A DNA stretch of 64,000 nucleotides from a virus, in the IMG/VR virus record IMGVR_UViG_3300036832_001295, positions 1-64,000 of that record; one strand, 5' to 3'. Within the stretch, counting starts at the first letter, position 1. Every line of letters begins with the position of its first letter. The notes below the pieces were generated by a model, which was not told the DNA's origin, did no database searches, and saw nothing but the letters and a program-made list of their open reading frames with translations. Position numbers and translations under genes: made by a program. This document shows, piece by piece, positions 25,563 through 39,299 of the stretch.

Positions 25563-28500
25563 TCACTTCCAGGCCGGGACGTAGACGGTGGTGCCGTCGC
25601 TAGAGGTCATCCTGAACCACGTGTAGGGGGCGGCGGCCACAGTGGCCGGGCTGTTCGCGCCGAGCGCGGCGCTGGCTGCGCCGGTCGCGTTGTTGCTGAT
25701 CTTCACTTGATGGTTGGCGGTGCCCAGCGCGATCTGGTTGGCCACCGCGGTACTGGCCCCGGCCGCGCCGCTGTCCGTGCCGATGGCCACCGAACCGTTG
25801 CCGCTGGCCACCGTGGCATAGCCGAGCGCGGTGGTATAGGCCAACGACGCGCCGCTGAAGTTGGCCTGGTAGCCCAGCGCGGTGTTGCCCGAGCCGTCGA
25901 CCAGCGAGAACAGCGGCCGGTAGCCGACCCCGGTGTTGCTGGCCCCGGTGGTGGCGCTGCGTACCGCGTTGTCGCCGACCCCGGTGTTGTTGATGCCGGT
26001 GGTCACCGAGAGCAGCGCCGCGTAGCCCAGCGCGGTGCAGGCCACTGCGCCAGCGGCGTTGTTCAGCGCCTGGTAGCCGACCGCCACCATGCTGCCGACG
26101 GTGGTGTTCTTCATCATCGCCTGCCAGCCGATGGCGACGTTCTGCGCCCCGGTGGTGTTGCCGAGCAACGCGCTGCTGCCGATCGCGATGTTGAATGCAG
26201 CGTCGGTAAGGCTCTTCAGTGCGTTGAATCCGACGGCGACGTTCTCTGTGGCGTTGACGGTTGGCGCGCCAGCGCTCATCGCCTGGGCACCTACCGCGAT
26301 GTTGTAGTTGGCGATCAGGGTGTTGCCCGCGTAGTAGCCGAGCGCGACGTTCTGCTGGCCGGTCGTCGTGTTCTGCAGCGCGCTCATCCCGACTGCGGTG
26401 TTGTACGCCCCGGAAGCCTTGTAGAGCGCGTTCTGGCCGATCGCGACACTGCCCGACCCGGCGGTGGCGATCTGCATCGCGTTCATCCCGATGGCGACTT
26501 GCCCGTCGCTGGCGGTGGCGGTGCTCAGCGCGTTCGCCCCGATGGCGACGCTGTTGTTGCTGCCAGCGACTATCGCCGACAGCGCGCCGTTGCCGAGCGC
26601 GGTGTTGCCGGAGCCGGTGGTGTTGTTCTGCATCGCGTTATAGCCGACCGCGGTGTTGCTGTTGCCGATCGTGTTCTGTAACGCCTGCGATCCGACGCCG
26701 ACATTGAAACTGCAAGCGTCGGACAGGTTCATCGCGTTGTAGCCGAGCGCGACATTGTTGTTGCCGGTCAGCATCGCCGCGAGGGTGCTGGTGCCGACCG
26801 CCACGATGGAGCCAGCGGTGGTGGCGGCGGTCATCGCGTTGTAGCCGACAGCGGTGTTGTTGACTCCGGTGGTGCTGGCTTTGAGGGCGTTGTTGCCGAC
26901 TGCGACGCTGATGCAGCTAGCAGAAGTGTTGGCGGCGAGCGTCGAGTAGCCGACTGCGACCGACCCGCCGATGCCATTGGCGTTCTGCATCGCGAGGGAG
27001 CCGACGGCGGTGTTGGTGCCACCGGAGACGTTCGCTGACAAGGCGAGAATGCCGACCGCGGTGTTGTTGCTGCCGGTCTGGTTCAGGGACAGCGCGGCGT
27101 GCCCGAGCCCAGTGTTGCTGGCCCCGGTGGTATTCACCTGCAACGTGGTGTAGCCCATCGCGATGTTGCCGGTGCCGCTGGTGTTGGCTTTCAGCGCGTT
27201 CAGCCCGACCGCGACCAGCCCGGTGGCGGTGTTGCTTTGCAACGCGCTGACGCCGATCGCGGTGCAGGAACTGGCCGTCGTGGTCCCGGACATAGCGTTA
27301 TAGCCGAGCGCAGTATTGGAAGCGCTGGTGGTGACCGCTGCCAGCGCGCCGAGGCCGACGGCGGTACTGCTGCTGCCGTCTACGTTCGCGGCCAGCGCGC
27401 TGCTGCCGACCGCGGTGTTGCTGCCTCCGGTGGTGTCCGCAGCGAGCGCGACGTATCCGAGGGCGGTGTTGCCCGTCCCGCTGGTGTTGGCCTTCAGCGC
27501 GTTCAGCCCGACCGCGGTCTGGTTGCTGACGGTGGTGTTCTGCAGCGCGGCGTAGCCGACCGCGACATTCTGCGACCCGCTGGACAACTGCATGCAGGTG
27601 CTGCCGACCGCGGTGTTGTAGCCGGTGGTGTTGGTGTTGCCGGACAGGGCGTTGACTCCCACCGCGACGTTATTAGCGCCGGTCACGGTGGTAGACAGTG
27701 CGGCGTAGCCGAGCGCGGTGTTGTTGATGCCGGAGGTGTTGGCGTTCAGCGCCTGGTAGCCAAGCCCAACATTGGCGGTGCCGGTGGTGTTCTGCTGCAT
27801 CGCGGCGTAACCGACCGCGGTCTGGTTGCCCGAGGTCGTGTTCTGCAGGGCGAGGTAGCCCACTGCGACATTCGCGCCCCCGGACGTGGACAGCTGCATC
27901 GCGGCGTAGCCGAGTGCGGTGTTGGTGCCACTGCTGGTCGCTCCGGCCAGCGCCGACCAGCCGAACGCGGTGTTGCCAGTGGCCGTGGCGTTCTGCAACG
28001 CGGATGTGCCAACTGCGGTGTTGTTCGCGCCGCTGACGTTGGCGAGTAGCGCGTTGTAGCCGAGCGCGACGTTGCTGCCGCCGGTCGTGTTGTTGGATAG
28101 GGCGGCATTGCCGACCGCAGTGTTCGCAGCGCCGGTCGTGTTCAGGCAGAGCGCCTGGATGCCGAACGCGGTGCCCGCGACGGTGCTGTTCTGCAGCGCC
28201 CGGTAGCCCATCGCGGTGCCGCTCGGGCCGGTGCAGAGTTGCATCGCCAGTTCACCGACGGCGGTGTTGAAGTTGCCGGTGGCGTTGGTGGCCAGCGCGA
28301 GGTAGCCGACGGCGGTGTTGTTGACGGCGGTGGTGAGCGCGGCGAGGGCGCTGTTGCCGACGGCGGTGTTGTTGCCGGAGCCGGTGGTCTGGGCAGCCAT
28401 TGCGCCCAGCCCGAAGCCTTCGTTGTGGTTGGCGGGTTCACCGAAGACTTGGGACAGCACTGAGCCGTGCGCGTCGATCCCGACCACGTTGGCCCAACCG

Positions 28501-30119
28501 ATGGCGTAGTCGGTGCCGCTGGTCTTGGTCAGCGCCTGCCCGGTGGTGCCACCGGCAGGCACACCTATCACGGTCTGATCTGCGGTCACCTGGACCCGGA
28601 AGTAGGCGATGTCGGTCGCACTGGCGGTCATCGAGACCTGGAACTGGTTATTCGACTGCGCGGACACCCGAGCCTGCAACGCCAGCGTCTGCCCATGGGT
28701 GATCGGATTGGCGTTCACCACGGCCAGCGCAGCGGTCTGCGTCGTGTTGGCGGCGACGTTGACGAAGGCGTTGCGGGTCAGCGGTGCCGCCCCGTTGACC
28801 GAGACGCCGAACTCCACCGTCCCGGTCCGGGTGGTGGTGTTCGTCAGGGTCATCTGGGCGGAGATCGTCGCGTCCCCGACCGGGATGTCGCGTCCGACCA
28901 CCAACGACAGGCCGAGATCCACCCACGGAGAAGGTGCGGCGACACCCGCAGCCTTGATCGTCACGCCGGTCTGGGTCGACGCGCTGATCTGGTAGCCGAG
29001 GGCCGGTGGCGCACCCCAGCCGAGGATCGCGTTGTTCGAGTTGTCGAAGCCCGCGATCACCAGCGGCGAGTCCTGCTGGCCGCCGAGCATGGTGGACATG
29101 GGCATCTGCGAGTCCAGCAGCAGACGCGGTGCACTGACGATGATGCCGTCCGGGGACGAGACGCCCAGCGCGTCGGCGTTCGGGTTCTCTACGTCGGGGA
29201 CGATGCCGATGGTGCCGGACGAGGCGTCGTAGGCGATCCCCAACGCGCCGGTCATCGTGTCCCCGGTGGTGTTCACGTACAACCCGTCCGCGATGGCCTG
29301 GTCAAGACCGGGCACCCCGACCTCCTGCCAGGGCGACCAGGCCTGCGTGGTGCTCCCGGTGGTGTAGGTGCGGAAGAAGCGTCGCCCGGAGGTCAACCCG
29401 GTCCAGGTCTGGGTCTGGGCCTGCGGCGTGTCGGTGGCGGTGCCGTCCACCCAGTCGTAGTCGGCCAGGTCGACGGTCAGGATCGCCTGCTCACCGGTCA
29501 GCGGGCCGCTGGCGGCGCGGTAGCTTCCGTTCATGAACACGTGATCCGGGTCGGCGCTGACATTGCCGGTGAACGACAACGGGGTCCACACCGACCAGAG
29601 GTTCTGCTGGCTGTGCCGCACCCACACGTCGTTGTTCAGGTCGGTGGTGTGTGGGCCGTCCGCGATCCACGTCTGGCTGATGTGCCGCAGTGACGGGTCG
29701 GCCCCCTGGCCGGTGCCGAAGACCTGCAAGACGCCGGTCGGGTCCTGCCCCTCGATGTCGACGCTGGCGACGTCCATCGCGATCGGCAACTGGGTGCGGT
29801 GGATCAGGTAGAAGCCCGGTTCGGTCAGGTCGTCGGCGGTGCCGACCCCGGTCATGTCCTGCAGCTGCCCCAGGCCGCCGTCGACCCCGGTCATGTCATC
29901 GGTGTCCACCCAGAAATCGCCGGTCTGTGCCGTGCCCGGCTCGTCCGGCTGGATGAAGACGTCCGGACCGTCCTCGCCGTCCGTACCCGGTGGACCTGCC
30001 GGGCCCGGTGGACCAGGCGGGCCGGGCGAGGTGGGCCAGACGTCGACATTCCCAGCGCCGCCGGTCCCGCCCAGGTCGAAGTCGATCGGGGTAGAGGCAG
30101 TTACCCGGTAGTTGGTCAT
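25563..30119 (-). CDS. long beta-solenoid tail fibre/adhesin
   Basis: start reset to ATG 30119 (ATGA overlap), 1518 aa; dozens of ~14 aa NTAVGxxAL/M repeats after an N-terminal collagen/fibre region. Confidence 0.85.
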   Translation of the reverse strand: MTNYRVTASTPIDFDLGGTGGAGNVDVWPTSPGPPGPPGPAGPPGTDGEDGPDVFIQPDEPGTAQTGDFWVDTDDMTGVDGGLGQLQDMTGVGTADDLTEPGFYLIHRTQLPIAMDVASVDIEGQDPTGVLQVFGTGQGADPSLRHISQTWIADGPHTTDLNNDVWVRHSQQNLWSVWTPLSFTGNVSADPDHVFMNGSYRAASGPLTGEQAILTVDLADYDWVDGTATDTPQAQTQTWTGLTSGRRFFRTYTTGSTTQAWSPWQEVGVPGLDQAIADGLYVNTTGDTMTGALGIAYDASSGTIGIVPDVENPNADALGVSSPDGIIVSAPRLLLDSQMPMSTMLGGQQDSPLVIAGFDNSNNAILGWGAPPALGYQISASTQTGVTIKAAGVAAPSPWVDLGLSLVVGRDIPVGDATISAQMTLTNTTTRTGTVEFGVSVNGAAPLTRNAFVNVAANTTQTAALAVVNANPITHGQTLALQARVSAQSNNQFQVSMTASATDIAYFRVQVTADQTVIGVPAGGTTGQALTKTSGTDYAIGWANVVGIDAHGSVLSQVFGEPANHNEGFGLGAMAAQTTGSGNNTAVGNSALAALTTAVNNTAVGYLALATNATGNFNTAVGELAMQLCTGPSGTAMGYRALQNSTVAGTAFGIQALCLNTTGAANTAVGNAALSNNTTGGSNVALGYNALLANVSGANNTAVGTSALQNATATGNTAFGWSALAGATSSGTNTALGYAAMQLSTSGGANVAVGYLALQNTTSGNQTAVGYAAMQQNTTGTANVGLGYQALNANTSGINNTALGYAALSTTVTGANNVAVGVNALSGNTNTTGYNTAVGSTCMQLSSGSQNVAVGYAALQNTTVSNQTAVGLNALKANTSGTGNTALGYVALAADTTGGSNTAVGSSALAANVDGSSSTAVGLGALAAVTTSASNTALGYNAMSGTTTASSCTAIGVSALQSNTATGLVAVGLNALKANTSGTGNIAMGYTTLQVNTTGASNTGLGHAALSLNQTGSNNTAVGILALSANVSGGTNTAVGSLAMQNANGIGGSVAVGYSTLAANTSASCISVAVGNNALKASTTGVNNTAVGYNAMTAATTAGSIVAVGTSTLAAMLTGNNNVALGYNAMNLSDACSFNVGVGSQALQNTIGNSNTAVGYNAMQNNTTGSGNTALGNGALSAIVAGSNNSVAIGANALSTATASDGQVAIGMNAMQIATAGSGSVAIGQNALYKASGAYNTAVGMSALQNTTTGQQNVALGYYAGNTLIANYNIAVGAQAMSAGAPTVNATENVAVGFNALKSLTDAAFNIAIGSSALLGNTTGAQNVAIGWQAMMKNTTVGSMVAVGYQALNNAAGAVACTALGYAALLSVTTGINNTGVGDNAVRSATTGASNTGVGYRPLFSLVDGSGNTALGYQANFSGASLAYTTALGYATVASGNGSVAIGTDSGAAGASTAVANQIALGTANHQVKISNNATGAASAALGANSPATVAAAPYTWFRMTSSDGTTVYVPAWK

Positions 30120-30871
30120 GAAGTCACCGTCACATCCCCGACCGCGATCGTGACGATCCCCTCCGGCAGGCTCAGGCGGCACTCCCACCGACAGACCGGC
30201 GGCAAAGTCACGGTGATGGTGTGGTCCAACATCAGGTGGATCACGTTGACGTTGACGGACAGCACGGTGAACACACCCAGCTGTTGACCGCCGTGGAAGA
30301 CGTCGGCGGCGACCATGTCGCCGCTCAGGTCGGCGGGGGCCCCGGTGTCCTGGTCGGTGAGAGTGAGGTCGAGGAAGTAGTCGTCGCCGCCCCGGAAACG
30401 GATGTTGACGATGGCCGGTTCGGCTTCCACGGTCTGCGGCGGTTCGGTCGGTTCCGGCGGGCCCGGCGGTATCTCCCCGGCAGGCAACGGCGGCCAGGCG
30501 GTGACCCGCGGGGTGACGGTGAGCACCCCGGAGGCGATCTTGGCGGTGTCCCCGTCGACCAGCCCGAAGCAGTCCCAGAAGCCGCGCCCGGAGGGCATCA
30601 GGGCGGTCACCGAGGCAGCCAGGTGCAGCAGCCATTGACCGACCGCGATGATCTGGATCAGGCCGTCGGCGGTGCCGGTGACATCCAGCCGGGCCAGCAG
30701 TTGGGAGTCGGGGTTGGTGTCCCGGCGCATCTCGATGACCGGCTCATCGACCGGCAGCGGGGTGACCGCGTCGGAGCGGTAGACCCAGAACGGTTCGGTG
30801 AACGCCGCCCCGCAGGCGATGCTCATCGCCAGCTGGGTGTTGCCGGGCAGCGTGTAGCTGGGCGCGCTCAC
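30116..30871 (-). CDS. tail/baseplate attachment-like protein (tandem beta domains)
   Basis: 251 aa; two similar domains ending SGVLTVT and VGDVTVT, BppU-N-like by recollection. Confidence 0.6.
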   Translation of the reverse strand: MSAPSYTLPGNTQLAMSIACGAAFTEPFWVYRSDAVTPLPVDEPVIEMRRDTNPDSQLLARLDVTGTADGLIQIIAVGQWLLHLAASVTALMPSGRGFWDCFGLVDGDTAKIASGVLTVTPRVTAWPPLPAGEIPPGPPEPTEPPQTVEAEPAIVNIRFRGGDDYFLDLTLTDQDTGAPADLSGDMVAADVFHGGQQLGVFTVLSVNVNVIHLMLDHTITVTLPPVCRWECRLSLPEGIVTIAVGDVTVTS

Positions 30872-30896: not shown

Positions 30897-31562
30897 TTAG
30901 CCCATCACGCAGACGTGCAGCATGTAGGTCTGGCTCTTCTCCTTGATCTGGATCGTCTGTGGGTGGAACGCCTCCGGGCAGAACGGACCGGCGGGCCCCT
31001 GCGGTCCTTGGACACCTTGCTTGCCCCGCGGGCCCGGTGCGCCACGTGGTCCGGCGGGACCCGCGGCCCCTTGTTTGCCGGTGGCCCCACGCTGGCCCTG
31101 TGCGCCCTGCTGTCCGGTCGCGCCGCGTGCCCCCTGCTGCCCGGTCGCGCCCTGCTGTCCTTGTGCGCCACGCGCTCCCGCGGCACCCTGGGCACCGGAC
31201 GCGCCGGGTGCGCCTTCGGGGCCTACCCTCCCAGGTTGGCCGGAGGTCCCCGGCGCTCCGTTGCGTCCCGCCGAGCCGGTTGCCCCGCTGGCCCCGGGAC
31301 TGCCTGCCGTCCCGGCTGGCCCGCTCGGCCCGGCACTGCCGGGGGTGCCGTTGGGTCCCATCAGCCCGGCACTGCCCGCCGGTCCCGGTGACCCGGCCGG
31401 ACCGGCAGGACCGCGGGGGCCGGGAATCCCGGCGTTGGCCTGCGCCTGCTTCTGGCCCAGCACCAGCGCCGCGACCGAGACGCTCAGCAGCAGCCCGGCG
31501 ATGATGAACGCCGCGCTAGCTTTGCCGAAGATCCGGTCCGCCCAACTCGTCACCTGGTTCAT
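30897..31562 (-). CDS. membrane-anchored collagen-like protein
   Basis: start ATG 31562; N-terminal TM helix, about 50 GXY triplets, C-terminal Cys pair. Confidence 0.8.
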   Translation of the reverse strand: MNQVTSWADRIFGKASAAFIIAGLLLSVSVAALVLGQKQAQANAGIPGPRGPAGPAGSPGPAGSAGLMGPNGTPGSAGPSGPAGTAGSPGASGATGSAGRNGAPGTSGQPGRVGPEGAPGASGAQGAAGARGAQGQQGATGQQGARGATGQQGAQGQRGATGKQGAAGPAGPRGAPGPRGKQGVQGPQGPAGPFCPEAFHPQTIQIKEKSQTYMLHVCVMG

Positions 31563-31824
31563 CGTCGTCCTCCTTCTCCGGTTCGGGTTCGGGCACCGCG
31601 ATGCCATGTTCGGCCAGCAGCATCATCAGTCGATAGTTGGCCAGTTCGGCCTGCACCCGACCGTGCCGCTCCTCGGCAAGCATCCCCTCGACCTCGCCTA
31701 GCTCGCCCTTGGCCGCCCGGCGTTCCTTGCTGCGCGCCGCCCGGATGGCCAGCAGCACTCCGGCGACGGCGGTGATGATCGCAGCCAGCCCGGTGACGAT
31801 GGCGACGATGTTGAAGGTGTCCAT
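31516..31824 (-). CDS. putative holin-like membrane protein
   Basis: start ATG 31824; one TM helix (FNIVAIVTGLAAIITAVAGVLLAI) plus coiled coil; directly downstream of the lysin. Confidence 0.6.
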   Translation of the reverse strand: MDTFNIVAIVTGLAAIITAVAGVLLAIRAARSKERRAAKGELGEVEGMLAEERHGRVQAELANYRLMMLLAEHGIAVPEPEPEKEDDDEPGDELGGPDLRQS

Positions 31825-31841: not shown

Positions 31842-32810
31842 TCACCAGTACAAGATCCGCCACCAGGCTCGGGTGACGGTGGCCGCCTTGCTGGCCGAGA
31901 CGAGCAGTCGCAGGTTGGTCTTGTCCCCGACCGTGCCGACCTGGCTGTAGACGAACTCGCTGCTGGCGGTGGGGGCGGCCAGCAGCTGCCCGCGCGGGAA
32001 GATGGACTTCTGGTTGTTGCCGCGGTCCAGGTTCTGCACCTGCACGTAGAGAACGCCGTCCGGGCCGAGCCCGGCGACGTAGAGCCAGGCGGTGAGGCTG
32101 ATGAACCGGGCGGTGTTGGGCAGGATCGCCGATGCCCCGCCGGAGGCGGTTGTCGGGTTCCAGCCGTCCCACTGCAGGTAGGTGTTGGTAGGCGCGGCGG
32201 GCACCTTGGTGGGTTTCTTCGCGGAGGCGGTCAGGTACAGCTGGGCGGGCATGTCGACCTCCGGCGGGGGAGTGGGGACGGGGCTGGTGGGCAGAATCGC
32301 GGTGCCCAGCGACAGGCAGTGCTTGTAGCGGGTGGTGCGGTCGGCCAGCCCGTTCAACCCGCCGTTGATGGCCCGGGTGGCCCCGACGATGTCGCCCTGG
32401 TCGGAGAGGGTGTTCAGCTGCGGGCGGGACACCGTCCAGTACCAGACCGGGCCGAGCCAGGCCCATTGGTCGGCAGCCAGGGTGGGCGGGTGGTTGAGGA
32501 ACAGATTCGGGTCGTTGAGCAGGTTCTTGCGGGCGCACCACTGCCCGAAGGCGGCGTAGTTGTAGTCCCAGGTGATCTGGATGAAGGTGCGCCCGATGTA
32601 GGGCGGGTAGGTTGCCCCGGGCGGTGGCTGGATTTCCTGCTTGTAGCGCAGCGAGCCGGATTCATGCCCGATCTGGGCCAGGAACATGGCGGCCCGGCGC
32701 ACGTTGGTGATCTCGCCGATGACCATCGCGGCGTTGGCCCCGTTGACCAGCTGGCTGGCGCGGGGCAAGTCCAGCCCGGGCATCGCCTTGACGAGGGTGG
32801 CGGCGTCCAC
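31842..32810 (-). CDS. endolysin, glycoside hydrolase family 19
   Basis: AMFLAQIGHESG, YIGRTFIQITWDYNY and TRAINGGLNGLADR GH19 motifs. Confidence 0.9.
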   Translation of the reverse strand: MDAATLVKAMPGLDLPRASQLVNGANAAMVIGEITNVRRAAMFLAQIGHESGSLRYKQEIQPPPGATYPPYIGRTFIQITWDYNYAAFGQWCARKNLLNDPNLFLNHPPTLAADQWAWLGPVWYWTVSRPQLNTLSDQGDIVGATRAINGGLNGLADRTTRYKHCLSLGTAILPTSPVPTPPPEVDMPAQLYLTASAKKPTKVPAAPTNTYLQWDGWNPTTASGGASAILPNTARFISLTAWLYVAGLGPDGVLYVQVQNLDRGNNQKSIFPRGQLLAAPTASSEFVYSQVGTVGDKTNLRLLVSASKAATVTRAWWRILYW

Positions 32811-32895
32811 ATTCCTTCGTATGGTGCGGTGCGGGTCGGACAGGGGGGCCTTGAACCGGGACGTTTGAAACCGTCAAGAAATAGAGGCGATGGTC

Positions 32896-32996
32896 TTGCA
32901 CACCTGGCGCTGGGATGTGCTACAGTTCCTGTGTCATCGCTTCCGCGGTGCAAACCACACAGGGTTCATAACCCACTACTCAAAGCCTATAGGAGG
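32896..32996 (+). promoter_or_regulatory. putative SigA-type promoter, leader hairpin and RBS of the RAMP-like operon
   Basis: TTGCAC (32896), 19 nt, TG-n-TACAGT (32921); CCTGTGT...ACACAGG stem; AGGAGG at 32991. Confidence 0.55.
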
Positions 32997-33002
32997 CTTA
33001 CT

Positions 33003-33650
33003 ATGACCGCAGCACCTACTGCTGCTCTGCACATCCCACGCATCAACGTGGAGACCCTGCTGGTGCCGATCCTCGGGACCAGCCCGCTGCTCGTGCACCA
33101 GTGGTCCCAGAAGGCCAAGCTGCAGATGCTCAACGCGCAGCAGGGCATCAAGACCATCAAGGAACCCCGCGACCCGCAGTCGGAGTACGAGGCCAGCCTG
33201 TACCGGGCCGGGGACGACGGCTACGGCATCCCGTCGGTCGCCTTCAAGGCGGCCACCGTGTCCGCGGCCCGCGTCTACGGCAAGGCGGTCCGGATGACCG
33301 AACTGCGCCAGTTCCTGTTCTTCCGCGGCAAGATGTACAAGGGCAACAACGGCAAGTTCAGCTGCAACCAACAGCTGTTCCTGCTCGACGGCACCCCGCA
33401 GATGCGCGAAGACATGGTCACCGTCGGCATCTCCGGCACCGACCTGCGCTACCGGGGCGAGTTCACCGAGTGGTCGACCACGCTGACCGTCGAGTACATC
33501 AAGTCCTCGATCACCAAGGAGTCGGTGCTCGGCATCATCGAGGCGGCCGGAACCACCGTCGGGGTCGGCGAGTGGCGGCCGGAGAAGGACGGCGAGTTCG
33601 GCACCTTCAAGCTCGACCCGTCCCGTGAGGTGCAGGTCATCTCGGCATGA
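33003..33650 (+). CDS. RAMP/Cas7-like protein, putative effector of the GGY-NN repeat system
   Basis: 215 aa from ATG 33003 with strong RBS; RAMP-like layout ILGTSPLLVH, YGIPSVAFKAA and C-terminal G-rich loop GVGEWRPEKDGEFGTF. Confidence 0.8.
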   Translation: MTAAPTAALHIPRINVETLLVPILGTSPLLVHQWSQKAKLQMLNAQQGIKTIKEPRDPQSEYEASLYRAGDDGYGIPSVAFKAATVSAARVYGKAVRMTELRQFLFFRGKMYKGNNGKFSCNQQLFLLDGTPQMREDMVTVGISGTDLRYRGEFTEWSTTLTVEYIKSSITKESVLGIIEAAGTTVGVGEWRPEKDGEFGTFKLDPSREVQVISA

Positions 33651-34015
33651 GCGGCGACCCGCAGCAGTGGTTGCGGACGGAGTTGAAGGGGGTGCGCGTC
33701 CGGCAGGGCGCGCTCACCCCGGCCACGTTGCTGGCTGACGTGACCCAGACCGGCCCGACGCATCCGCTCTATGACCGGTTCCTGTGGTCGGTGGACACGC
33801 CGCAGGACAAGGCCCAACTGGCCCGCATGCTGATCCACGAGGCCCATCCGGAGCAGGCCTGCCGCCAGGCCACCCTGGACGAGGTACAGGCCGGGTTCGC
33901 CCGGCTGGGGTTTTCCACCGGCAGCTTGCAGACCAACTACCACCGTGAGGACCACATTCTGTTCACGGTGGACGACGCACAGCGGCTGCTGGCCGCATTA
34001 GGGGGACAGTCATGA
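33647..34015 (+). CDS. accessory protein, divergent paralog of 34012..34467
   Basis: ATGA-coupled; GALTPATLLA...HPLYDRFLW. Confidence 0.75.
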   Translation: MSGDPQQWLRTELKGVRVRQGALTPATLLADVTQTGPTHPLYDRFLWSVDTPQDKAQLARMLIHEAHPEQACRQATLDEVQAGFARLGFSTGSLQTNYHREDHILFTVDDAQRLLAALGGQS

Positions 34016-34467
34016 GCTTCTCCGCCTACGAGGCGCAGCGGGAACTGATCACGCAGCTGGAAGAGGTTCGCGAACACCGCGGCGAACTGACCCCGCAGGC
34101 GGTGTTGGCCGAGGTCGAGGAGACCGGCAAGCGGCACCCGCTCTACGACCGGTTCGAGTGGAACAACCGGGTCGCCGGGCACGGCTACCGCCTCGACCAG
34201 GCGCACCGGCTGATCATGTCCGTGAAGGTGATCTTCCGGGGACCGACCGACGAGGAACGCAAGATCCGCAAGTACGTCGCGGTGCCGCAGCCGATGGCCC
34301 ACCAACCCAACTACGAGCCGATCGAGGACGTCGCGATGGACGACCTGAAACGCAAGCTGGTGCTGCAGGACGCGGAACGGCGCTGGAAGGCGTTGCGGAC
34401 CCAGTTCGGCCACCTGCAGGAGTTCATCGACCTGGTGCTGGGCGACCTGAACGGCAAGGCCAGCTGA
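34012..34467 (+). CDS. accessory protein of the RAMP-like operon
   Basis: ATGA-coupled; GELTPQAVLA...HPLYDRFEWNN...YRLDQAHRLI. Confidence 0.8.
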   Translation: MSFSAYEAQRELITQLEEVREHRGELTPQAVLAEVEETGKRHPLYDRFEWNNRVAGHGYRLDQAHRLIMSVKVIFRGPTDEERKIRKYVAVPQPMAHQPNYEPIEDVAMDDLKRKLVLQDAERRWKALRTQFGHLQEFIDLVLGDLNGKAS

Positions 34468-34470
34468 GCT

Positions 34471-34554
34471 AAACACGCTCGGCCAGGTGCCGATCGTGTT
34501 TGTCGAGATCCGGGATGCCCAACCGCGGGGGAGGGAGCATCCCGGATCTTCGGC
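34471..34554 (+). other. two stem-loops forming the array leader
   Basis: AAACACGcTCGGC-caggt-GCCGAtCGTGTTT (34471-34501) and GATCCGGGATGC...GCATCCCGGATC (within 34502-34554). Confidence 0.7.
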
Positions 34555-34561
34555 GTCTGCG

Positions 34562-34957
34562 GGCAGGGCTTGGTTCGGCACGGTTCGGCACGGCAGGGCT
34601 GGGCAGGCACGGCAAGGCTGGGCCCGTCGAGGTTCGGCGTGGCAAGGCCCGGCAGGCCAGGCAGGGTGTGGCACGGCACGTCGTGGCGGGGTTCGGCAGG
34701 GCTGGGCAGGCAAGGCGAGGCACGGCATGGCACGGCCTGGCGCGGCCGGGCAGGCAAGGCGTGGATGGCCCGGCGGGACGTGGCAAGGCGGGGCAGGCAC
34801 GGCTTGGTTGGGCACGGCAGGGCTAGGTTCGGCATGGCGGGGCAGGCAGGGCTTGGTGCGGCCAGGCGCGGTTGGGGTTGGCGCGGTGCGGCGGGGCAGG
34901 CGTGGCACGGCTTGTCATGGCTGGGCAGGGCTGGTCTTGGCGCGGCGTGGCAGGCTG
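34562..34957 (+). repeat. GGY-NN pentamer array 1 (putative guide ncRNA, about 8 units)
   Basis: period-5 GGC/GGT plus a variable dinucleotide, interrupted every 8-10 pentamers by GGCA. Confidence 0.9.
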
Positions 34958-34999
34958 TGCCGAACAGGTCAAACGGTGATCTGGTTAGGGGGAATCGGG

Positions 35000-35446
35000 A
35001 TGAAGATTCATACGCTGTTGGCGTTGGCCGCGGCCGGGGTGTGCACCGCCGGAATGGTGGTCTTCGCGGCACCGGCCTCGGCGGCGCAGTCGGAGTTGAC
35101 CCTCAACTGCACCGGCCTCGGCATGGTGACGGTGGCGACCAACAACAACAACTCATCCGAGCACGGTGGTTGGGGCGCGGCGCAGACCGTGAACATTCCC
35201 GGGCACGGTATCGCGACCTCGTTCTCCGGCACGATTACCGACCTGGTGACCGGCACCAGCGTGAGCTTCACCCAGGTCAAGGGCAACGGCAACGCCAACC
35301 AGAACACCACCGGGCAACCCACCATGTGCTCACAGACGATCACCGGCACGGTGGTCGACTTCACCGGGGGGTTCATCCCGCCGGGCATGTCGGGCTCTGA
35401 CCCGGCCACCTTCATGCTCACGGTGGGCGTGATTTACAAGGCCTGA
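35000..35446 (+). CDS. secreted protein embedded between the two arrays
   Basis: 148 aa; Sec signal MKIHTLLALAAAG...AAPASA-A; two Cys in the mature part; GC3-rich codons. Confidence 0.8.
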   Translation: MKIHTLLALAAAGVCTAGMVVFAAPASAAQSELTLNCTGLGMVTVATNNNNSSEHGGWGAAQTVNIPGHGIATSFSGTITDLVTGTSVSFTQVKGNGNANQNTTGQPTMCSQTITGTVVDFTGGFIPPGMSGSDPATFMLTVGVIYKA

Positions 35447-35449
35447 CTC

Positions 35450-38300
35450 GGCAGGCAGGGCTTGGCGGGGCATGGTTCGGCGCGGCATGGCACGGTGTGG
35501 CAGCCAGGGCACGGCGCGGCACGGCACGGCCTGGCTCGGCGCGGCAGGCGCGGCGCGGCGCGGCGGGGTCGGGCCCGGCCTGGTGCGGCGAGACATGGCG
35601 CGGCGAGGCAGGCATGGTGTGGCTCGGCCTGGCTCGGCAAGGCAGGGCAGGCACGGCATGGTTGGGCTCGGCGCGGTTGGGCGTCGCAGGGCTTGGCAGG
35701 CAGGGCGAGGTGTGGCGGGTCCAGGCATGGCGCGGCAGGCATGGCCCGGCGCGGCTCGGTACGGCAAGGTGGGGCGTGGCAGGCGGGGTTGGGTTCGGTT
35801 TGGCATGGCGCGGTTGGGCACGGCACGGCTCGGCAGGCGTGGCTTGGCGTGTCGAGGCGGGGCTGGGTTCGCTGGGCCAGGCGGGGCAGGGCAGGCGTGG
35901 CTGGGCGGGTTCCGGCAAGGCAAGGCATGGCCAGGCAGGCACGGCCCGGTTCGGTATGGCACGTCGTGGCCAGACTTGGCTTGGCAGGCGTGGCTTGGTG
36001 TGGCACGGCCGGGTCAGGCACGGTTGGGCGCGGCAGGCTCGGCGAGGCGTGTCATGGCAAGGCTCGGCTAGGTAGGGCACGGCAGCCGAGGCCTGGTGAG
36101 GCAGGGCAACGCGAGGCATGGCTAGGCCCGGCAGTCGGGGCGTGGCATGACCCGGTGTGGCAGGTCACGGCAAGGCGTGGCGCGGCAGGCACGGCTAGGT
36201 CGGGCGCGGATCGGCGTGGCATGGCGTGGCAGCTAAGGCGCGGCGGGGCACGGCACGGCTGGCTAGGCAAGGCTCGGCCCGGTGCGGCATGGCAGGTCAG
36301 GGCAGGCGTGGCAGGGTGCGGCAGGGTCAGGCGCGGCAGGGCTAGGCGGGGCTTGGCAGGCAAACGTGGTTTAGCTGGGCCCGGCGTGCCGGGGCACGGT
36401 GGGGCGTGGCAGGCAGAGCAAGGCTCGGCTTGGTTCGGCGTGGCATGGCAGGCAGGGCTAGGCAAGGTATGACAAGGCTGGGTGCGGCATGGCGTGGCTG
36501 GCATTCGTGGTTTGGCTGGGCGGGCCGCGGCGGGGCAGGCAAGGCATGGCTTGGCATCGCATGGTGTGGCTCGGCTAGGCGCGGCAGGGCAGGCAGGCGA
36601 GGCCGGGCAGGCAGGGCTGGATTCGGCCGGGCATGGCTTGGCGCGGTTTGGCAGGCAAGGCAGGCATGGTGAGGCACGGCAGGGCACGGCGCGGCTAGGC
36701 GCGGCAGGCGAGGCAGGGCCCGGCTAGTCCAGGTGCGGCGGGTCGCGGCCGGGTTCGGCAGGGCAGGCTCGGTTGGGCTGGGCGGGGCGTGGTTTGGCAA
36801 GGCAGGGTTGGGCACGGCAGGCAGGCAGGGCGTGGTTGGGCTCGGGCGGCTGGGCACGGCAGGGCAGGCACGGCGGGTCCGGGCGAGGCTCGGCAAGGTC
36901 CGGCCTGGCGGGGTAGGGCCTGGCAGGCGAGGCGGGGTGTGGCGGGGCCTGGCGGGTCAAGGCACGTCATGGCGCGGCAGGCATGGCGAGGCAGGGCTTG
37001 GTCCGGCAGGGCACGTCCCGGCTTGGCTTGGCAGGCTCGGCCAGGCGCGGTTGGGCGAGGCATGGCAAGGCAGGGCTCGGCCAGGCAGGCATGGCCCGGC
37101 GAGACCCGGCTCGGCTCGGTGCGGCATGGCGCGGCATGGCAGGCAGGGCGCGGCGCGGCCAGGCGAGGCCGGGCTTGGCTCGGTCCGGCCTGGCGAGGCG
37201 AGGCAGGCATGGCCCGGTATGGCACGGTGCGGCACGTCCCGGCGTGGTATGGCAGCCGAGGCCCGGCTTAGCGTGGCAGGTCTTGGCGAGGCCTGGTGTG
37301 GCACGGCAAGGCAGGGCGTGGCAGGCATCGCGTGGTGTGGCACGGCCCGGTGGGGCACGGCTTGGCAGGCATCGCACGGCGCGGCATGGCAGGTCGAGGC
37401 AAAGCCTGGCGGGCACGGCAGGCATGGCCCGGTCCGGTTCGGCACCGCACGGCGGGGCATGGCAGGCATGGTTCGGCTTGGCGTGGTGTGGTGGGGCACG
37501 GCAGGGCACGGCAGGCAGGGCTCGGCGTGGTTCGGCACGGCACGGTGTGGCGTGGCTTGGCGGGCAGGGCTCGGCCGGGTTGGGTACGGCGTGGTCAGGC
37601 GAGGCGCGGCGCGGTGTGGCAGGCAGGGCTCGGTACGGCGGGGCATGGCAGGGTGTGGCTAGGCCCGGCGGGCATGGCATGGCGCGGCAAGTCCAGGCGA
37701 GGCGCGGCGAGGCGTGGCGAGGCGAGGCGAGGCAGGCAAGGCAAGGTCGGGCAGGGCACGGTATGGCCCGGTGTGGTTGGCATGGCGCGGCATGGCAGGC
37801 AGGGCGCGGCAGGCTGGGCTCGGCACGGCTAGGCGCGGCTCGGCAAGGCGTGGTGGGGCAGCCGGGGCTGGGCGAGTTGGGCATGGCCGGGCGCGGCGTG
37901 GCAGTCCAGGCAGGGCAGGACGAGGCAGGGCTAGGCGCGGCTTGGCAGGGCAGGCTTGGCCCGGCGGGGCATGGTTGGGCTAGTCAAGGTCGGGCATGGC
38001 AGGCAGGGCAGGGCTTGGCCCGGCAACGCAGGGCTTGGCCCGGCGCGGCAGGCACGGCAGGGTTAGGCGGGGCGGGGTCCGGCTAGGCCTGGCAGGCAAG
38101 GCGGGGCAGGTCCCGGCTTGGTTGGGCACGGCTCGGCGCGGCAGGCGTGGCAGAGTTCGGCGAGGCTAGGCGTGGCAAGGCCCGGCTAGGCAGCCACGGC
38201 GGGGCCTGGCCAGGCATGGCAAGGTGAGGTGCGGCGCGGCATGGCAGGCGTGGCTTGGCGTGGCACCGTGTGGCCACGCGTGGCACGGCACGGCAGGCTC
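35450..38300 (+). repeat. GGY-NN pentamer array 2 (putative guide ncRNA, roughly 55-60 units by hand estimate)
   Basis: about 2.85 kb of period-5 GGY-NN with GGCA (occasionally GGCT/GGCG) punctuation; strong G skew; no coherent ORF. Confidence 0.92.
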
Positions 38301-38317
38301 GGAAAACCGGGCCTGCC
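38292..38317 (+). terminator. stem-loop closing the array
   Basis: GGCAGGCTCGG-AAAA-CCGGGCCTGCC, 11 bp stem with one G-U pair, at a convergent junction; no U-tract. Confidence 0.65.
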
Positions 38318-38320
38318 CGC

Positions 38321-38494
38321 TCACCCCTCGCTGTCGCTGCACCCCACGTCGCGGTACTCCACCTCGGTCGTCTGGCTCGGCGGGTCCACCTGCGGGTAGT
38401 CGTAGTCCTCGACCAGGTCGAAGCGTTCCTCCTCGTAGGAGGTCTCCGGCGGCGGCGGCTCCTCGGTCGGCTCCGGGATCGGCACCTCGCTCAT
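38321..38494 (-). CDS. small acidic protein
   Basis: 57 aa from ATG 38494 with GGGAGAG RBS. Confidence 0.55.
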   Translation of the reverse strand: MSEVPIPEPTEEPPPPETSYEEERFDLVEDYDYPQVDPPSQTTEVEYRDVGCSDSEG

Positions 38495-38504
38495 CGTCTC
38501 TCCC

Positions 38505-39299
38505 TCAGTAGGTGAACAGCCGGGTCCAGTCGCCCCGCCACACCTGGCCGACATGCTTGCTGCGCGGGGTGTGCTTCTTCTGCCACTTGGTCACCGCGGC
38601 GGTAGTAGTTGCTCCGTAGACGCCCGGGGTCCACTTGCCGCCGAAGCCGAGGGCCGCCAGCCGGTTCTGGATGGCCTGGATGTCCGGGCGTTCGGCGACG
38701 TAGTAGCCGCCGTGGCTGGTGTTCGGCCCGGCGATCGGCCCGAAGTAGTGGCCCTTCTTCATGTAGGAGGGCCAGCGGCGGCGCAACTTCTTCTCCTTGC
38801 CCGGTTTGGCCGGTGCCTTGGGGGCCGAACCCTGCCCGCAGAAGACCTGCGCGACCCGCTGCCAGGCGGGTCCGTCGTTGACGTAGGCGCGGTGCCCGGA
38901 CAGATGCACGTGCCAAAGATGTGATTTGTCCGAACTGACCCATTTCAGGGTCTGCACGTCCAGCCCGGTGACGTCCTTGCCGTTGACGGTGCCGAAGAAC
39001 TCGCGCAGCGTCTGCATCCGCACGTCGTGCGCCTTGGCGGCGTTGATCAGCCGTTGGGTGACCTTGCGCATCTGCGCCGCGGGCAGCGTGACGTCCAGGG
39101 CGGACGCGGCCTGCCCGTCGCCCTTGCGGTCGATCGGTTGGGTCACCGAATAGTCGTCCTTGGGCAGCACGTCCCGGCAACGGTGGTAGCCGTAGGCGTG
39201 GCTGCGGTCCCCGACGATGCCGGACAGCTGCGCCTGCGGGATGAAATGGTGGATGGTGTTGTAGGCCGCCTGGATCGCCTGCGGGGCATATTCGCTCAT
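38505..39299 (-). CDS. second lysin: putative Zn peptidase (M15-like) plus peptidoglycan-binding domain
   Basis: GYH...ALDV...HLWHVHLS metal ligands; C-terminal DIQAIQNRL...GVYGATTTAAVTKWQ...GQVW PG-binding pattern. Confidence 0.75.
   Translation of the reverse strand: MSEYAPQAIQAAYNTIHHFIPQAQLSGIVGDRSHAYGYHRCRDVLPKDDYSVTQPIDRKGDGQAASALDVTLPAAQMRKVTQRLINAAKAHDVRMQTLREFFGTVNGKDVTGLDVQTLKWVSSDKSHLWHVHLSGHRAYVNDGPAWQRVAQVFCGQGSAPKAPAKPGKEKKLRRRWPSYMKKGHYFGPIAGPNTSHGGYYVAERPDIQAIQNRLAALGFGGKWTPGVYGATTTAAVTKWQKKHTPRSKHVGQVWRGDWTRLFTY

What the first reader, a model, noticed from the sequence alone, without database searches (positions are those of the whole stretch)
34562..38291. The variable dinucleotides spell codon positions 1-2 of protein-coding targets (wobble-skipping code)
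Taking the NN string of each unit, reverse-complementing it and reading each dinucleotide as the first two codon bases gives protein-like peptides. Examples: 34845-34894 P-A-A-K/N-Q/H-A-W-A-K/N-L; 35782-35831 E-V-V-Q-A-I-K-E-H-P; 38247-38291 V-V-T-W-T-V-T-N-T (Ig/CARDB-like strand). By eye AG exceeds CT, TC exceeds GA and TG exceeds CA, as expected antisense to Leu (CT), Asp/Glu (GA) and His/Gln (CA) codons. Inferred: the target is NNxNNx..., with the skipped base on the wobble position, so synonymous mutation cannot escape recognition. Ambiguous residues were chosen by me, so single decodings are not proof.
Basis: partly seen in the sequence, partly recalled or inferred. Interest (0 to 1): 0.93.

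Follow-up and report, generated by a model that had tools for sequence, protein, structure and literature searches.

The report
Phage VIPR guide array, wobble-skipping code
This soil phage carries a very large guide-RNA array of the VIPR type, a CRISPR-like system first described in 2026, so the "read two bases, skip the wobble base" idea is the published mechanism, though the real targets of these guides were not found.

Summary
The repeat is real. On the + strand, 34551-34962 and 35448-38305 hold 592 pentamers NN-GGY (535 are GGC or GGT). 77 four-base steps (56 are AGGC) cut them into 74 units, mostly of 8-10 pentamers.

Just upstream on the same strand lies a 215-aa gene. It matches the solved SUSP1 Vipr protein (E 7e-7) and folds like Cas7/Csm3. 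A conserved accessory gene follows it.

This is a VIPR system with a "staggered" vrRNA array, as in bioRxiv 10.64898/2026.04.26.720920 and .720927.

Tests on this array give only partial support:
- NN composition fits antisense codon positions 1-2 best of six phase models.
- Units differ in strand type more than chance (p 0.0014).
- Two units lie 1-2 bases from in-frame SNF2 and TIR motifs.
- Gap-1 patterns gave no excess over shuffles in 2.4 Mb.
- Four exact IMG/VR scans found nothing, and two metagenome scans gave one hit at chance level.

The natural targets remain unknown. This scan has noted such arrays before on other DNA (264 notes, at least 157 genomes). It is a new member of a known kind.

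The parts
33003..33650 (+). vipr gene (215 aa), a Cas7/RAMP-like protein
   Evidence: An AGGAGG sequence lies before the ATG, and GC3 is 0.90-0.98 in this frame. phmmer hits PDB 36pp_D 'SUSP1 Vipr protein' at E 7e-7 over the G-loop region. It matches phrog_4652 at E 5.8e-40. The AF2 model has pLDDT 92.5. The top Foldseek hits are Csm3/Cas7 chains at prob 1.00, E 8.5e-6. 1968 homologues have E<=1e-3.
33647..34015 (+). vapA, a 122-aa partial paralogue of the accessory gene
   Evidence: It is 51% identical to vapB over 45 N-terminal residues, E 6e-14. Only 2 of 147 related loci hold a match. It has no Pfam or PHROG family.
34012..34467 (+). vapB, a 151-aa conserved vipr-accessory (vap) candidate
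   Evidence: It matches phrog_15946 at E 2.9e-22. A homologue lies just downstream of vipr on the same strand in 119 of 147 related loci, with a median gap of 68 nt. The Atlas search returns only viral hypothetical clusters. Structural likeness to winged-helix Rep3_N is faint (TM 0.32-0.35), which is no more than a lead.
34502..34554 (+). strong hairpin between vapB and the array
   Evidence: It folds at -38.6 kcal/mol, z -4.49, and 0 of 200 shuffles fold as well. Its role is unknown; it could be a terminator, an attenuator or a processing signal.
34551..34962 (+). vrRNA array, segment 1 (9 units)
   Evidence: Parse: NNGGY pentamers separated by AGGC steps.
35000..35446 (+). 148-aa ORF that splits the array (hydrophobic N-terminus, Thr/Gly/Asn-rich); probably not part of the system
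   Evidence: ORF. It has no Pfam or PHROG family and no homologue in the 147 related loci.
35448..38305 (+). vrRNA array, segment 2 (about 65 units)
   Evidence: Parse. TRF periods are 19, 24, 29, 34, 44, 49, 54 and 64, all of the form 5n+4. GC reaches 0.74-0.76 and GC skew +0.29 to +0.33.
38292..38317 (+). hairpin at the 3' end of the array
   Evidence: 11-bp stem, -27.3 kcal/mol, z -3.38.

Best explanation
The region is the guide array of a phage VIPR system (Viral Interference Programmable Repeat).

Shown here: the vipr gene (33003-33650) encodes a Cas7-like protein, a vap gene follows it, and then come 74 abutting guide units on the same strand. Each unit is 8-12 repeats of NN-GGY. Each unit ends in a four-base step AGGC, which shifts the pentamer register by one base. 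This is the 'staggered' array type.

Inferred from the published SUSP1 work: the array is transcribed and cut into unit-length vrRNAs. One Vipr protomer binds each repeat, buries the GGY bases and presents the NN pair. The filament then pairs with DNA that reads NN-x-NN-x, flipping out every third target base, and blocks transcription.

Because the skipped base tends to fall on codon position 3, a guide tolerates synonymous changes in its target. On this array most units (45 of 58) look antisense to coding DNA and 13 look sense. Which genes are targeted is not known.
For: Vipr homology. The protein hits PDB 36pp_D 'SUSP1 Vipr protein' at E 7e-7. That alignment pairs SUSP1 R138, W178 and R179 with R151, W191 and R192 here, and D177 with E190. 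The companion preprint names those SUSP1 residues as GGY contacts. R151, E190, W191 and R192 are invariant in 43 homologues. The model has pLDDT 92.5, and its best fold matches are Csm3/Cas7.

Array grammar. 535 of 592 pentamers are GGY, and 56 of 77 steps are AGGC. The same grammar appears in seven related loci that I printed.

Gene-array linkage. 75 of 80 viral loci holding a Vipr relative have an NNGGY array next to the gene on the same strand. 119 of 147 loci have the vap homologue.

Hypervariable NN. No guide is shared with 175 units of related arrays.

Code, published. The 1-nt skip and wobble alignment are described in the text read. The legend of fig. S18 describes staggered arrays with 1-nt overlap.

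Code, here. Log-likelihoods of the NN counts under models built from the phage's own genes are: antisense codon positions 1-2, -1469; sense positions 1-2, -1520; uniform, -1483; genome dinucleotides, -1551; all four wobble-containing phases, -1702 or lower. The variance of the per-unit sense/antisense score is 0.506 against 0.317 +/- 0.056 in permutations, p 0.0014, and 0 of 60 random axes reach this.

Near-matches. Unit 36929 gave 12 hits at up to 3 mismatches in 5 actinobacterial genomes, against 1 for the reversed control. 6 of 6 tested 18/20 hits are in-frame SNF2-rel_dom proteins. Unit 37037 has one 18/20 in-frame hit at the first residues of a TIR domain.
Against: No natural target was found.

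- Local scans. 55 units against 1.4 Mb, 55 units against 2.44 Mb and 218 units of all arrays against 2.36 Mb show gap 1 no better than shuffled units, and hardly better than gaps 0, 2 and 3. In one search, 14 units had 2 or fewer mismatches at gap 1 against 8.4 for shuffles, and one of the 14 came from loci I had fetched because of that unit.
- Exact gap-1 scans. Units 37037, 36929, 35785 and 36769 gave 0 hits in IMG/VR. Unit 37145 gave 0 hits in JGI metagenomes. Unit 36929 gave 1 metagenome hit, in a LytS-type histidine kinase rather than an SNF2 gene. By my estimate that is about the chance number.
- Unit 37037 had no hit at 1 mismatch or fewer in 401 Actinomycetes genomes, and none at 3 or fewer in 5 genomes.
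- Composition is only a little better than uniform. A fitted model with independent N1 and N2 does better still (-1441), so an intrinsic base preference could explain much of the asymmetry.
- The over-dispersion rests partly on one GA-rich unit. Without unit 37674, z falls from 3.46 to 2.18 (p 0.02).
- The tool's control reverses each dinucleotide (AT becomes TA), which lowers control counts in GC-rich DNA.
- Expression and processing of the array are not shown. The skip rule has been tested in print for types II, III and V, and I could not see which type this clade belongs to.
Confidence: 0.8

Rival explanations
1. It is a VIPR guide array, but in this staggered, actinophage clade the pairing rule or the target class differs from the published one. 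It might use another gap, only part of each unit, or non-coding and regulatory targets. The codon reading would then be a by-product of base preferences.
For: No gap-1 excess appeared. There were no exact hits. An independent-position model fits the NN counts better than any codon model. The Methods mention variant repeats (NNNGG, YNNNG, NNNNG) in some VIPR loci.
Against: Four of the five named GGY-contact residues are identical here and the fifth is a D-to-E change. The published skip pocket holds one nucleotide. Units are over-dispersed along the sense/antisense axis and not along random axes. Near-matches of units 36929 and 37037 sit in frame on conserved motifs.
Confidence: 0.1
2. The array is a largely decayed or runaway tandem expansion. 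It would be relic guides amplified by slippage or recombination, few of them functional, which would explain why no targets are found.
For: 57 of 592 pentamers have lost GGY, and 21 of 77 steps are not AGGC. 16 of 74 units have fewer than 7 pentamers. TRF finds internal duplications such as 37993-38166. An unrelated ORF splits the array. The array is 11 times the median length of relatives.
Against: NN strings are nearly all different from each other: the best pairs share 5 of 8-9 NN, about the chance level by my estimate. So the array is not a recent amplification of a few units. 90% of GGY is kept over 3.2 kb. A second relative, L017, keeps a 3.9-kb array.
Confidence: 0.06
3. It is not an RNA guide at all. 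It would be a DNA-level element (protein-binding iterons, or G-rich structure-forming DNA) or a repetitive protein-coding region.
For: The + strand carries GG every five bases and has a strong GC skew. Long ORFs cross the array in several frames.
Against: Unit lengths of 5n+4 break any reading frame. Within the repeat only NN = TA can make a stop codon, so long ORFs follow from the repeat itself. The array is always on the strand of a Cas7-like gene in relatives, which fits a transcript and not a symmetric DNA site. The homologous system is shown in print to act through RNA.
Confidence: 0.03

Closest known systems
VIPR systems with staggered vrRNA arrays (bioRxiv 10.64898/2026.04.26.720920, legend of fig. 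S18, read)
   Same: Both have a stand-alone Vipr gene with a vap gene and GGY/NN pentamer guides. Units abut with a one-base register shift, so the end of one guide is the start of the next. There is no tail between units.
   Different: This array is far larger than most: 74 units and 3.2 kb, against a median of 294 bp in 124 related arrays. It is split by an unrelated ORF and has a second, partial vap copy. The preprint text says only the ribozyme and single-guide architectures were confirmed by RNA sequencing, so the staggered type is still a prediction. I could see neither the figure nor the supplements.
Type II VIPR of Escherichia phage SUSP1 (same preprint and 10.64898/2026.04.26.720927; PDB 36pp)
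   Same: The Vipr protein is homologous (E 7e-7), with the G-loop motif and GGY-contact residues kept. Both use GGY/NN repeats of 9-16 per guide. The presumed 1-nt skip code falls on the wobble position.
   Different: SUSP1 has four separate vrRNAs of about 100 nt, each with an invariant 3' tail and pseudoknot. Here there is no tail, and no Rfam family or ribozyme is found. The host is an actinobacterium rather than E. coli. SUSP1 targets are known (a satellite phage), whereas here they are not.
Class 1 CRISPR backbone (Cas7/Csm3 filaments on crRNA)
   Same: The RRM/RAMP fold is shared. One protomer binds per RNA repeat step, and thumb insertion flips bases periodically (text read).
   Different: This locus has no CRISPR repeats or spacers, and none of the 10 neighbouring ORFs scanned matched a cas family. 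The guide information is non-contiguous: 2 of every 5 RNA bases pair with 2 of every 3 DNA bases.

Membership tests
VIPR system | Vipr protein: a small stand-alone RAMP (RRM core, G-loop, thumb) related to characterised Vipr | tested here: met
   The 215-aa protein hits the PDB SUSP1 Vipr chain at E 7e-7. The model has pLDDT 92.5. The best fold matches are Csm3/Cas7 at prob 1.00.
VIPR system | Residues that hold the GGY bases in SUSP1 Vipr (H17, R138, D177, W178, R179) | tested here: met
   The phmmer alignment pairs R138/R151, D177/E190, W178/W191 and R179/R192. All four are invariant in 43 homologues. The H17/H32 pairing comes from a stretch that is not significant, so it is tentative.
VIPR system | vrRNA of tandem YNNGG repeats, with GGY conserved and NN hypervariable, 9-16 repeats per guide | tested here: met
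   535 of 592 pentamers are GGY. All 16 NN occur, at 2.4-10.1% each. The commonest unit lengths are 9, 8 and 10 pentamers (20, 13 and 13 of the 74 units); 55 of 74 units have 8 or more. No guide is shared with relatives.
VIPR system | Array next to vipr on the same strand, with a vap gene | tested here: met
   This is the arrangement here. It also holds in 75 of 80 viral relatives, and the vap homologue is in 119 of 147 loci.
VIPR system | vrRNAs are expressed, processed and bound by Vipr | not testable with these tools
   Only one DNA run, a soil metagenome that is probably the source, holds the stretch.
VIPR system | Natural targets follow the 1-nt skip rule with the skip on the wobble position | tested here: inconclusive
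   Gap 1 showed no excess in local scans. Exact scans gave 0 hits for 4 of 4 units in IMG/VR and 1 hit from 2 metagenome scans. Composition and strand-type tests lean towards the rule.
Type II VIPR (SUSP1-like) | Each vrRNA ends in an invariant structured 3' tail (pseudoknot) | tested here: not met
   Units abut through a 4-base step. No Rfam match appears in 32800-38600.
Staggered vrRNA array | Successive guides overlap by 1 nt, so the end of one is the start of the next | tested here: met
   GGC-A-GGC junctions account for 56 of 77 steps, so unit periods are 5n+4. The same junction is seen in L009, L014, L017, L029, L058, L062 and L074.
CRISPR array | Direct repeats of about 23-47 nt alternating with unique spacers, with cas genes nearby | tested here: not met
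   The only constant elements are 3-4 bases long. None of the 10 neighbouring ORFs scanned matched a cas family in Pfam.

The most novel reading that the evidence does not exclude
Large staggered VIPR arrays such as this one may be aimed not only at rival phages, as the preprint proposes, but at conserved catalytic motifs of host anti-phage defence genes. The wobble skip would then let one guide cover many diverged alleles, making the array a programmable, broad anti-defence weapon.

Evidence for:
- Unit 36929 lies 1-2 bases from motif I of SNF2 helicases, which PADLOC calls DrmD/BrxH-like (E 1e-115 and 3e-71).
- Unit 37037 lies 2 bases from the first strand of a ThsB-like TIR domain (PADLOC E 3e-37 to 4e-61).
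- A unit of a related Streptomyces prophage (L097) lies 2 bases from the P-loop of PprDinG-like helicases in 8 hits across 7 of 151 Streptomyces genomes.

Evidence against:
- No exact match was found.
- The best matches of unit 37091 are a housekeeping glucose-6-phosphate isomerase and not a defence ATPase.
- The one exact hit of unit 36929 is a histidine kinase.
- The units were picked by eye.
- GxGK[ST] decodes are only 2 observed against 0.21 expected in 233 units (p 0.015).
Probability: 0.25. Interest if true: 0.75.

Novelty: new member of a known kind. Interest (0 to 1): 0.33.

Why it matters

Its value is as material. It is one of the largest VIPR arrays in my sample: only 1 of 147 related loci has a longer one. 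It belongs to the staggered type, whose processing has not, by the preprint's own text, been confirmed experimentally, and whose targets the preprint does not analyse in the sections I read. It comes from a high-GC soil actinophage, where wobble positions are nearly all G or C, so the test of codon phase is sharp.

If its guides prove to be aimed at host defence genes, that would widen the known role of VIPR from phage-against-phage conflict to phage-against-host.

Tried and rejected
Structure prediction. A single-sequence AF2 run on the Vipr candidate gave pLDDT 31 and was unusable. I replaced it with an alignment-based model.

Local target scans. Three scans used gaps 0-3 and shuffled units: 1.4 Mb, 2.44 Mb and 218 units against 2.36 Mb. 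None gave a signal. I looked for several units converging on the one 19/20 locus (G079, 60 kb fetched) and found none. That hit also lies in a 120-aa ORF with no Pfam family.

Exact scans. IMG/VR gave 0 hits for units 37037, 36929, 35785 and 36769. JGI metagenomes gave 0 hits for unit 37145 and 1 hit for unit 36929, in a histidine kinase.

Rule-picked units in 121 Actinomycetes genomes at 2 mismatches or fewer. Unit 35785 gave 1 hit against 0 for the control, in an AMP-binding enzyme, which is about chance. Unit 37037 gave 1 against 0. At 1 mismatch or fewer in 401 genomes it gave 0.

The 'GHKL' reading of unit 37091. It gave 8 hits against 1 for the control, but 5 of the 8 are PGI-family proteins, 1 is a CheA-type kinase, 1 is a glycosyltransferase/PD40 protein and 1 has no family. 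In the 5-genome search the 5 hits were 1 HATPase_c_3 protein (MzaB-like), 2 histidine kinases, 1 solute-binding protein and 1 untested. I therefore reject the GHKL assignment as unproven.

Shared or duplicated guides. None are shared with relatives. The two within-array pairs sharing 5 NN are about what chance gives, by my estimate.

Other checks. Motif counts for DxGxG, a DE-box and GK[ST] show no excess. The Rfam scan of 32800-38600 found nothing above threshold and no ribozyme. The sigma-70 promoter scan found 0 sites, which says little for actinobacteria. No RNA holder is listed for the stretch, and I did not use read laying. I considered protein-coding, CRISPR and DNA-iteron readings and rejected them (see rivals). 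I did not open the supplements of either preprint (type tables, data S3/S4, figures). They may already list this clade, its type and its targets.


Full report
WHAT IS THERE

The window is the first 64 kb of an 85.7-kb IMG/VR virus record. The only sequencing run that holds the stretch is a soil metagenome. Between 34551 and 38305 the + strand is built from five-base steps. GGC recurs at spacing 5 (274 times), 10 (91) and 4 (56) in the main block.

A dynamic-programming parse gives 592 pentamers NN-GGY, of which 446 are GGC and 89 are GGT. It also gives 77 four-base steps, 56 of them AGGC. Together these make 74 units, most often of 9, 8 or 10 pentamers. Tandem Repeats Finder reports periods of 19, 24, 29, 34, 44, 49, 54 and 64, all of the form 5n+4.

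The array is in two pieces, 34551-34962 and 35448-38305. They are separated by a 148-aa ORF (35000-35446) that has no known family and no counterpart in relatives. Strong hairpins sit before and after the array.

WHAT IT BELONGS TO

A note from this scan on the same stretch used the word VIPR. That led me to two 2026 preprints.

- From the first (10.64898/2026.04.26.720920) I read Results, Discussion, four Methods sections and passages of figure legends.
- From the second (10.64898/2026.04.26.720927) I read the abstract and two Results sections.

They describe phage systems made of a small Cas7-like protein (Vipr), an accessory gene (vap) and vrRNAs of 9-16 YNNGG repeats. The NN pairs read DNA with one skipped base between them, and that base mostly falls on the codon wobble position. 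The legend of fig. S18 describes 'staggered' arrays in which successive vrRNAs overlap by one nucleotide.

THE LOCUS FITS

The gene at 33003-33650 has a ribosome-binding site and the GC3 of a real gene. Its product matches the solved SUSP1 Vipr chain at E 7e-7 over the G-loop.

Four of the five residues that the structural preprint names as GGY contacts are identical in the significant part of that alignment or change conservatively: R151, W191 and R192 are identical, and D becomes E at 190. All four are invariant in 43 homologues.

An alignment-based model has pLDDT 92.5. Its best structural matches are Csm3/Cas7 subunits of type III and type VII CRISPR complexes.

The family is large: 1968 proteins have E<=1e-3. 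In 75 of 80 viral loci that encode a relative, an NNGGY array lies beside the gene on the same strand, with the same AGGC junction in the seven loci I printed. The 151-aa gene that follows vipr has a homologue in the same place in 119 of 147 loci.

The nearest genomic relatives are in Actinomycetota. The phage's lysin resembles those of Mycobacterium and Gordonia phages.

This array spans 3,235 bp, against a median of 294 bp in 124 related arrays. Only one relative, L017, has a longer one.

DOES THE CODE HOLD ON THIS ARRAY?

Three intrinsic tests lean towards it.

1. I built six phase models from the phage's own genes. Antisense codon positions 1-2 fit the 535 NN best (logL -1469). Sense positions 1-2 give -1520, uniform gives -1483, and any phase that includes the wobble base gives -1702 or worse. 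The margin over uniform is small, and a fitted independent-position model does better (-1441).

2. If each unit copies one strand of a gene, units should fall into sense-like and antisense-like classes. The variance of the per-unit score is 0.506, against 0.317 +/- 0.056 when NN are dealt out at random (p 0.0014). None of 60 random axes reaches this. Without one GA-rich unit, z falls to 2.18. 45 units look antisense and 13 look sense.

3. Some units sit very close to conserved motifs, in frame.
- Unit 36929 gave 12 hits at 3 mismatches or fewer in five actinobacterial genomes, against 1 for the control. Six of six tested 18/20 hits lie in SNF2-domain proteins, two of them DrmD/BrxH-like by PADLOC.
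- Unit 37037 has one 18/20 hit in 121 genomes. By my arithmetic it falls at residues 129-138 of a DUF1883-TIR protein whose TIR domain starts at 128-131. PADLOC calls that protein ThsB-like.

THE DIRECT TEST DID NOT SUCCEED

- Gap-1 patterns of 55 units found no better matches than shuffled units, or than gaps 0, 2 and 3, in 1.4 and 2.44 Mb of related phage and prophage DNA plus the phage's own genome.
- The same was true for 218 clean units from all arrays.
- Exact scans of IMG/VR with four units found nothing.
- One metagenome scan found nothing. The other found one in-frame site, in a LytS-type histidine kinase. I estimate that as about the chance number for 20 fixed bases in a collection of that size.
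- Unit 37037 has no match at 1 mismatch or fewer in 401 genomes.
- Unit 37091, read by the first stage as a GHKL ATPase box, matches glucose-6-phosphate isomerase genes best (two at 19/20, five of eight hits). This shows how loose decoding by eye is.
- In GC-rich coding DNA, in-frame phase of near-matches follows from composition alone.
- The tool's reversed control is weakened because it turns AT into TA.

So the natural targets are unknown. For this clade the skip rule rests on homology plus suggestive statistics.

VERDICT

The scan has met such arrays many times on other DNA: 264 notes in at least 157 genomes. Several follow-up notes there read guides as defence-gene motifs. I treated those as leads only.

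The boldest reading that my data leave open is that part of this repertoire is aimed at host defence genes (SNF2, TIR). A related Streptomyces prophage unit lies close to DinG-type helicase P-loops. I put that reading at about one in four.

Noticed in passing
window 35000-35446 (+): A 148-aa ORF with a hydrophobic N-terminus, rich in Thr, Gly and Asn, sits inside the guide array and splits it in two. It has no Pfam or PHROG family and no homologue in 147 related VIPR loci.
   Followed up: partly
window 33647-34015 and 34012-34467 (+): The accessory gene is present twice. The first copy (122 aa) shares only its N-terminal 45 residues (51% identity) with the conserved 151-aa copy, and is found in 2 of 147 relatives.
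   Followed up: partly
window 31842-32810 (-) and 38505-39299 (-): The VIPR locus is flanked on both sides by lysis genes on the opposite strand. One is a lysin A-like glycoside hydrolase, with best hits in Mycobacterium and Gordonia phages. The other is a PG_binding_1 endolysin-like gene.
   Followed up: partly
window 30897-31607 (-) and 25563-30635 (-): There is a collagen triple-helix repeat protein (Pfam E 1.8e-25), and beside it a 1690-aa ORF with a weak, below-cutoff YadA_head match. These are probably tail fibre or tape-measure region genes.
   Followed up: no
L097:10882 (Streptomyces caeni prophage VIPR array): An 11-NN unit decodes antisense to a P-loop string. It has 8 in-frame hits at 20/22 in 151 Streptomyces genomes, against 1 for the control. 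The hits lie in proteins of 779 aa or more (each cut by an end of its 3-kb locus) that Pfam barely recognises. PADLOC calls the 3 of 8 that I scanned PprDinG (E 1e-37 to 6e-48).
   Followed up: partly
L017:10697-14676: A related viral contig carries an even longer staggered array, about 3.9 kb in two blocks, so kilobase-scale VIPR arrays recur in this clade.
   Followed up: no
window 37993-38166: TRF reports a 93-nt period with 76% matches. This is an internal duplication of about two units, which hints at how the array grows.
   Followed up: no
G001 (uncultured Gordonia MAG), nine contigs: This 5.6-Mb MAG holds nine SNF2-type motif I sites within 3 mismatches of unit 36929, most of them on contigs with high contig numbers. 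That is an unusual load of SNF2 helicase genes and may reflect mobile elements or mixed binning.
   Followed up: no
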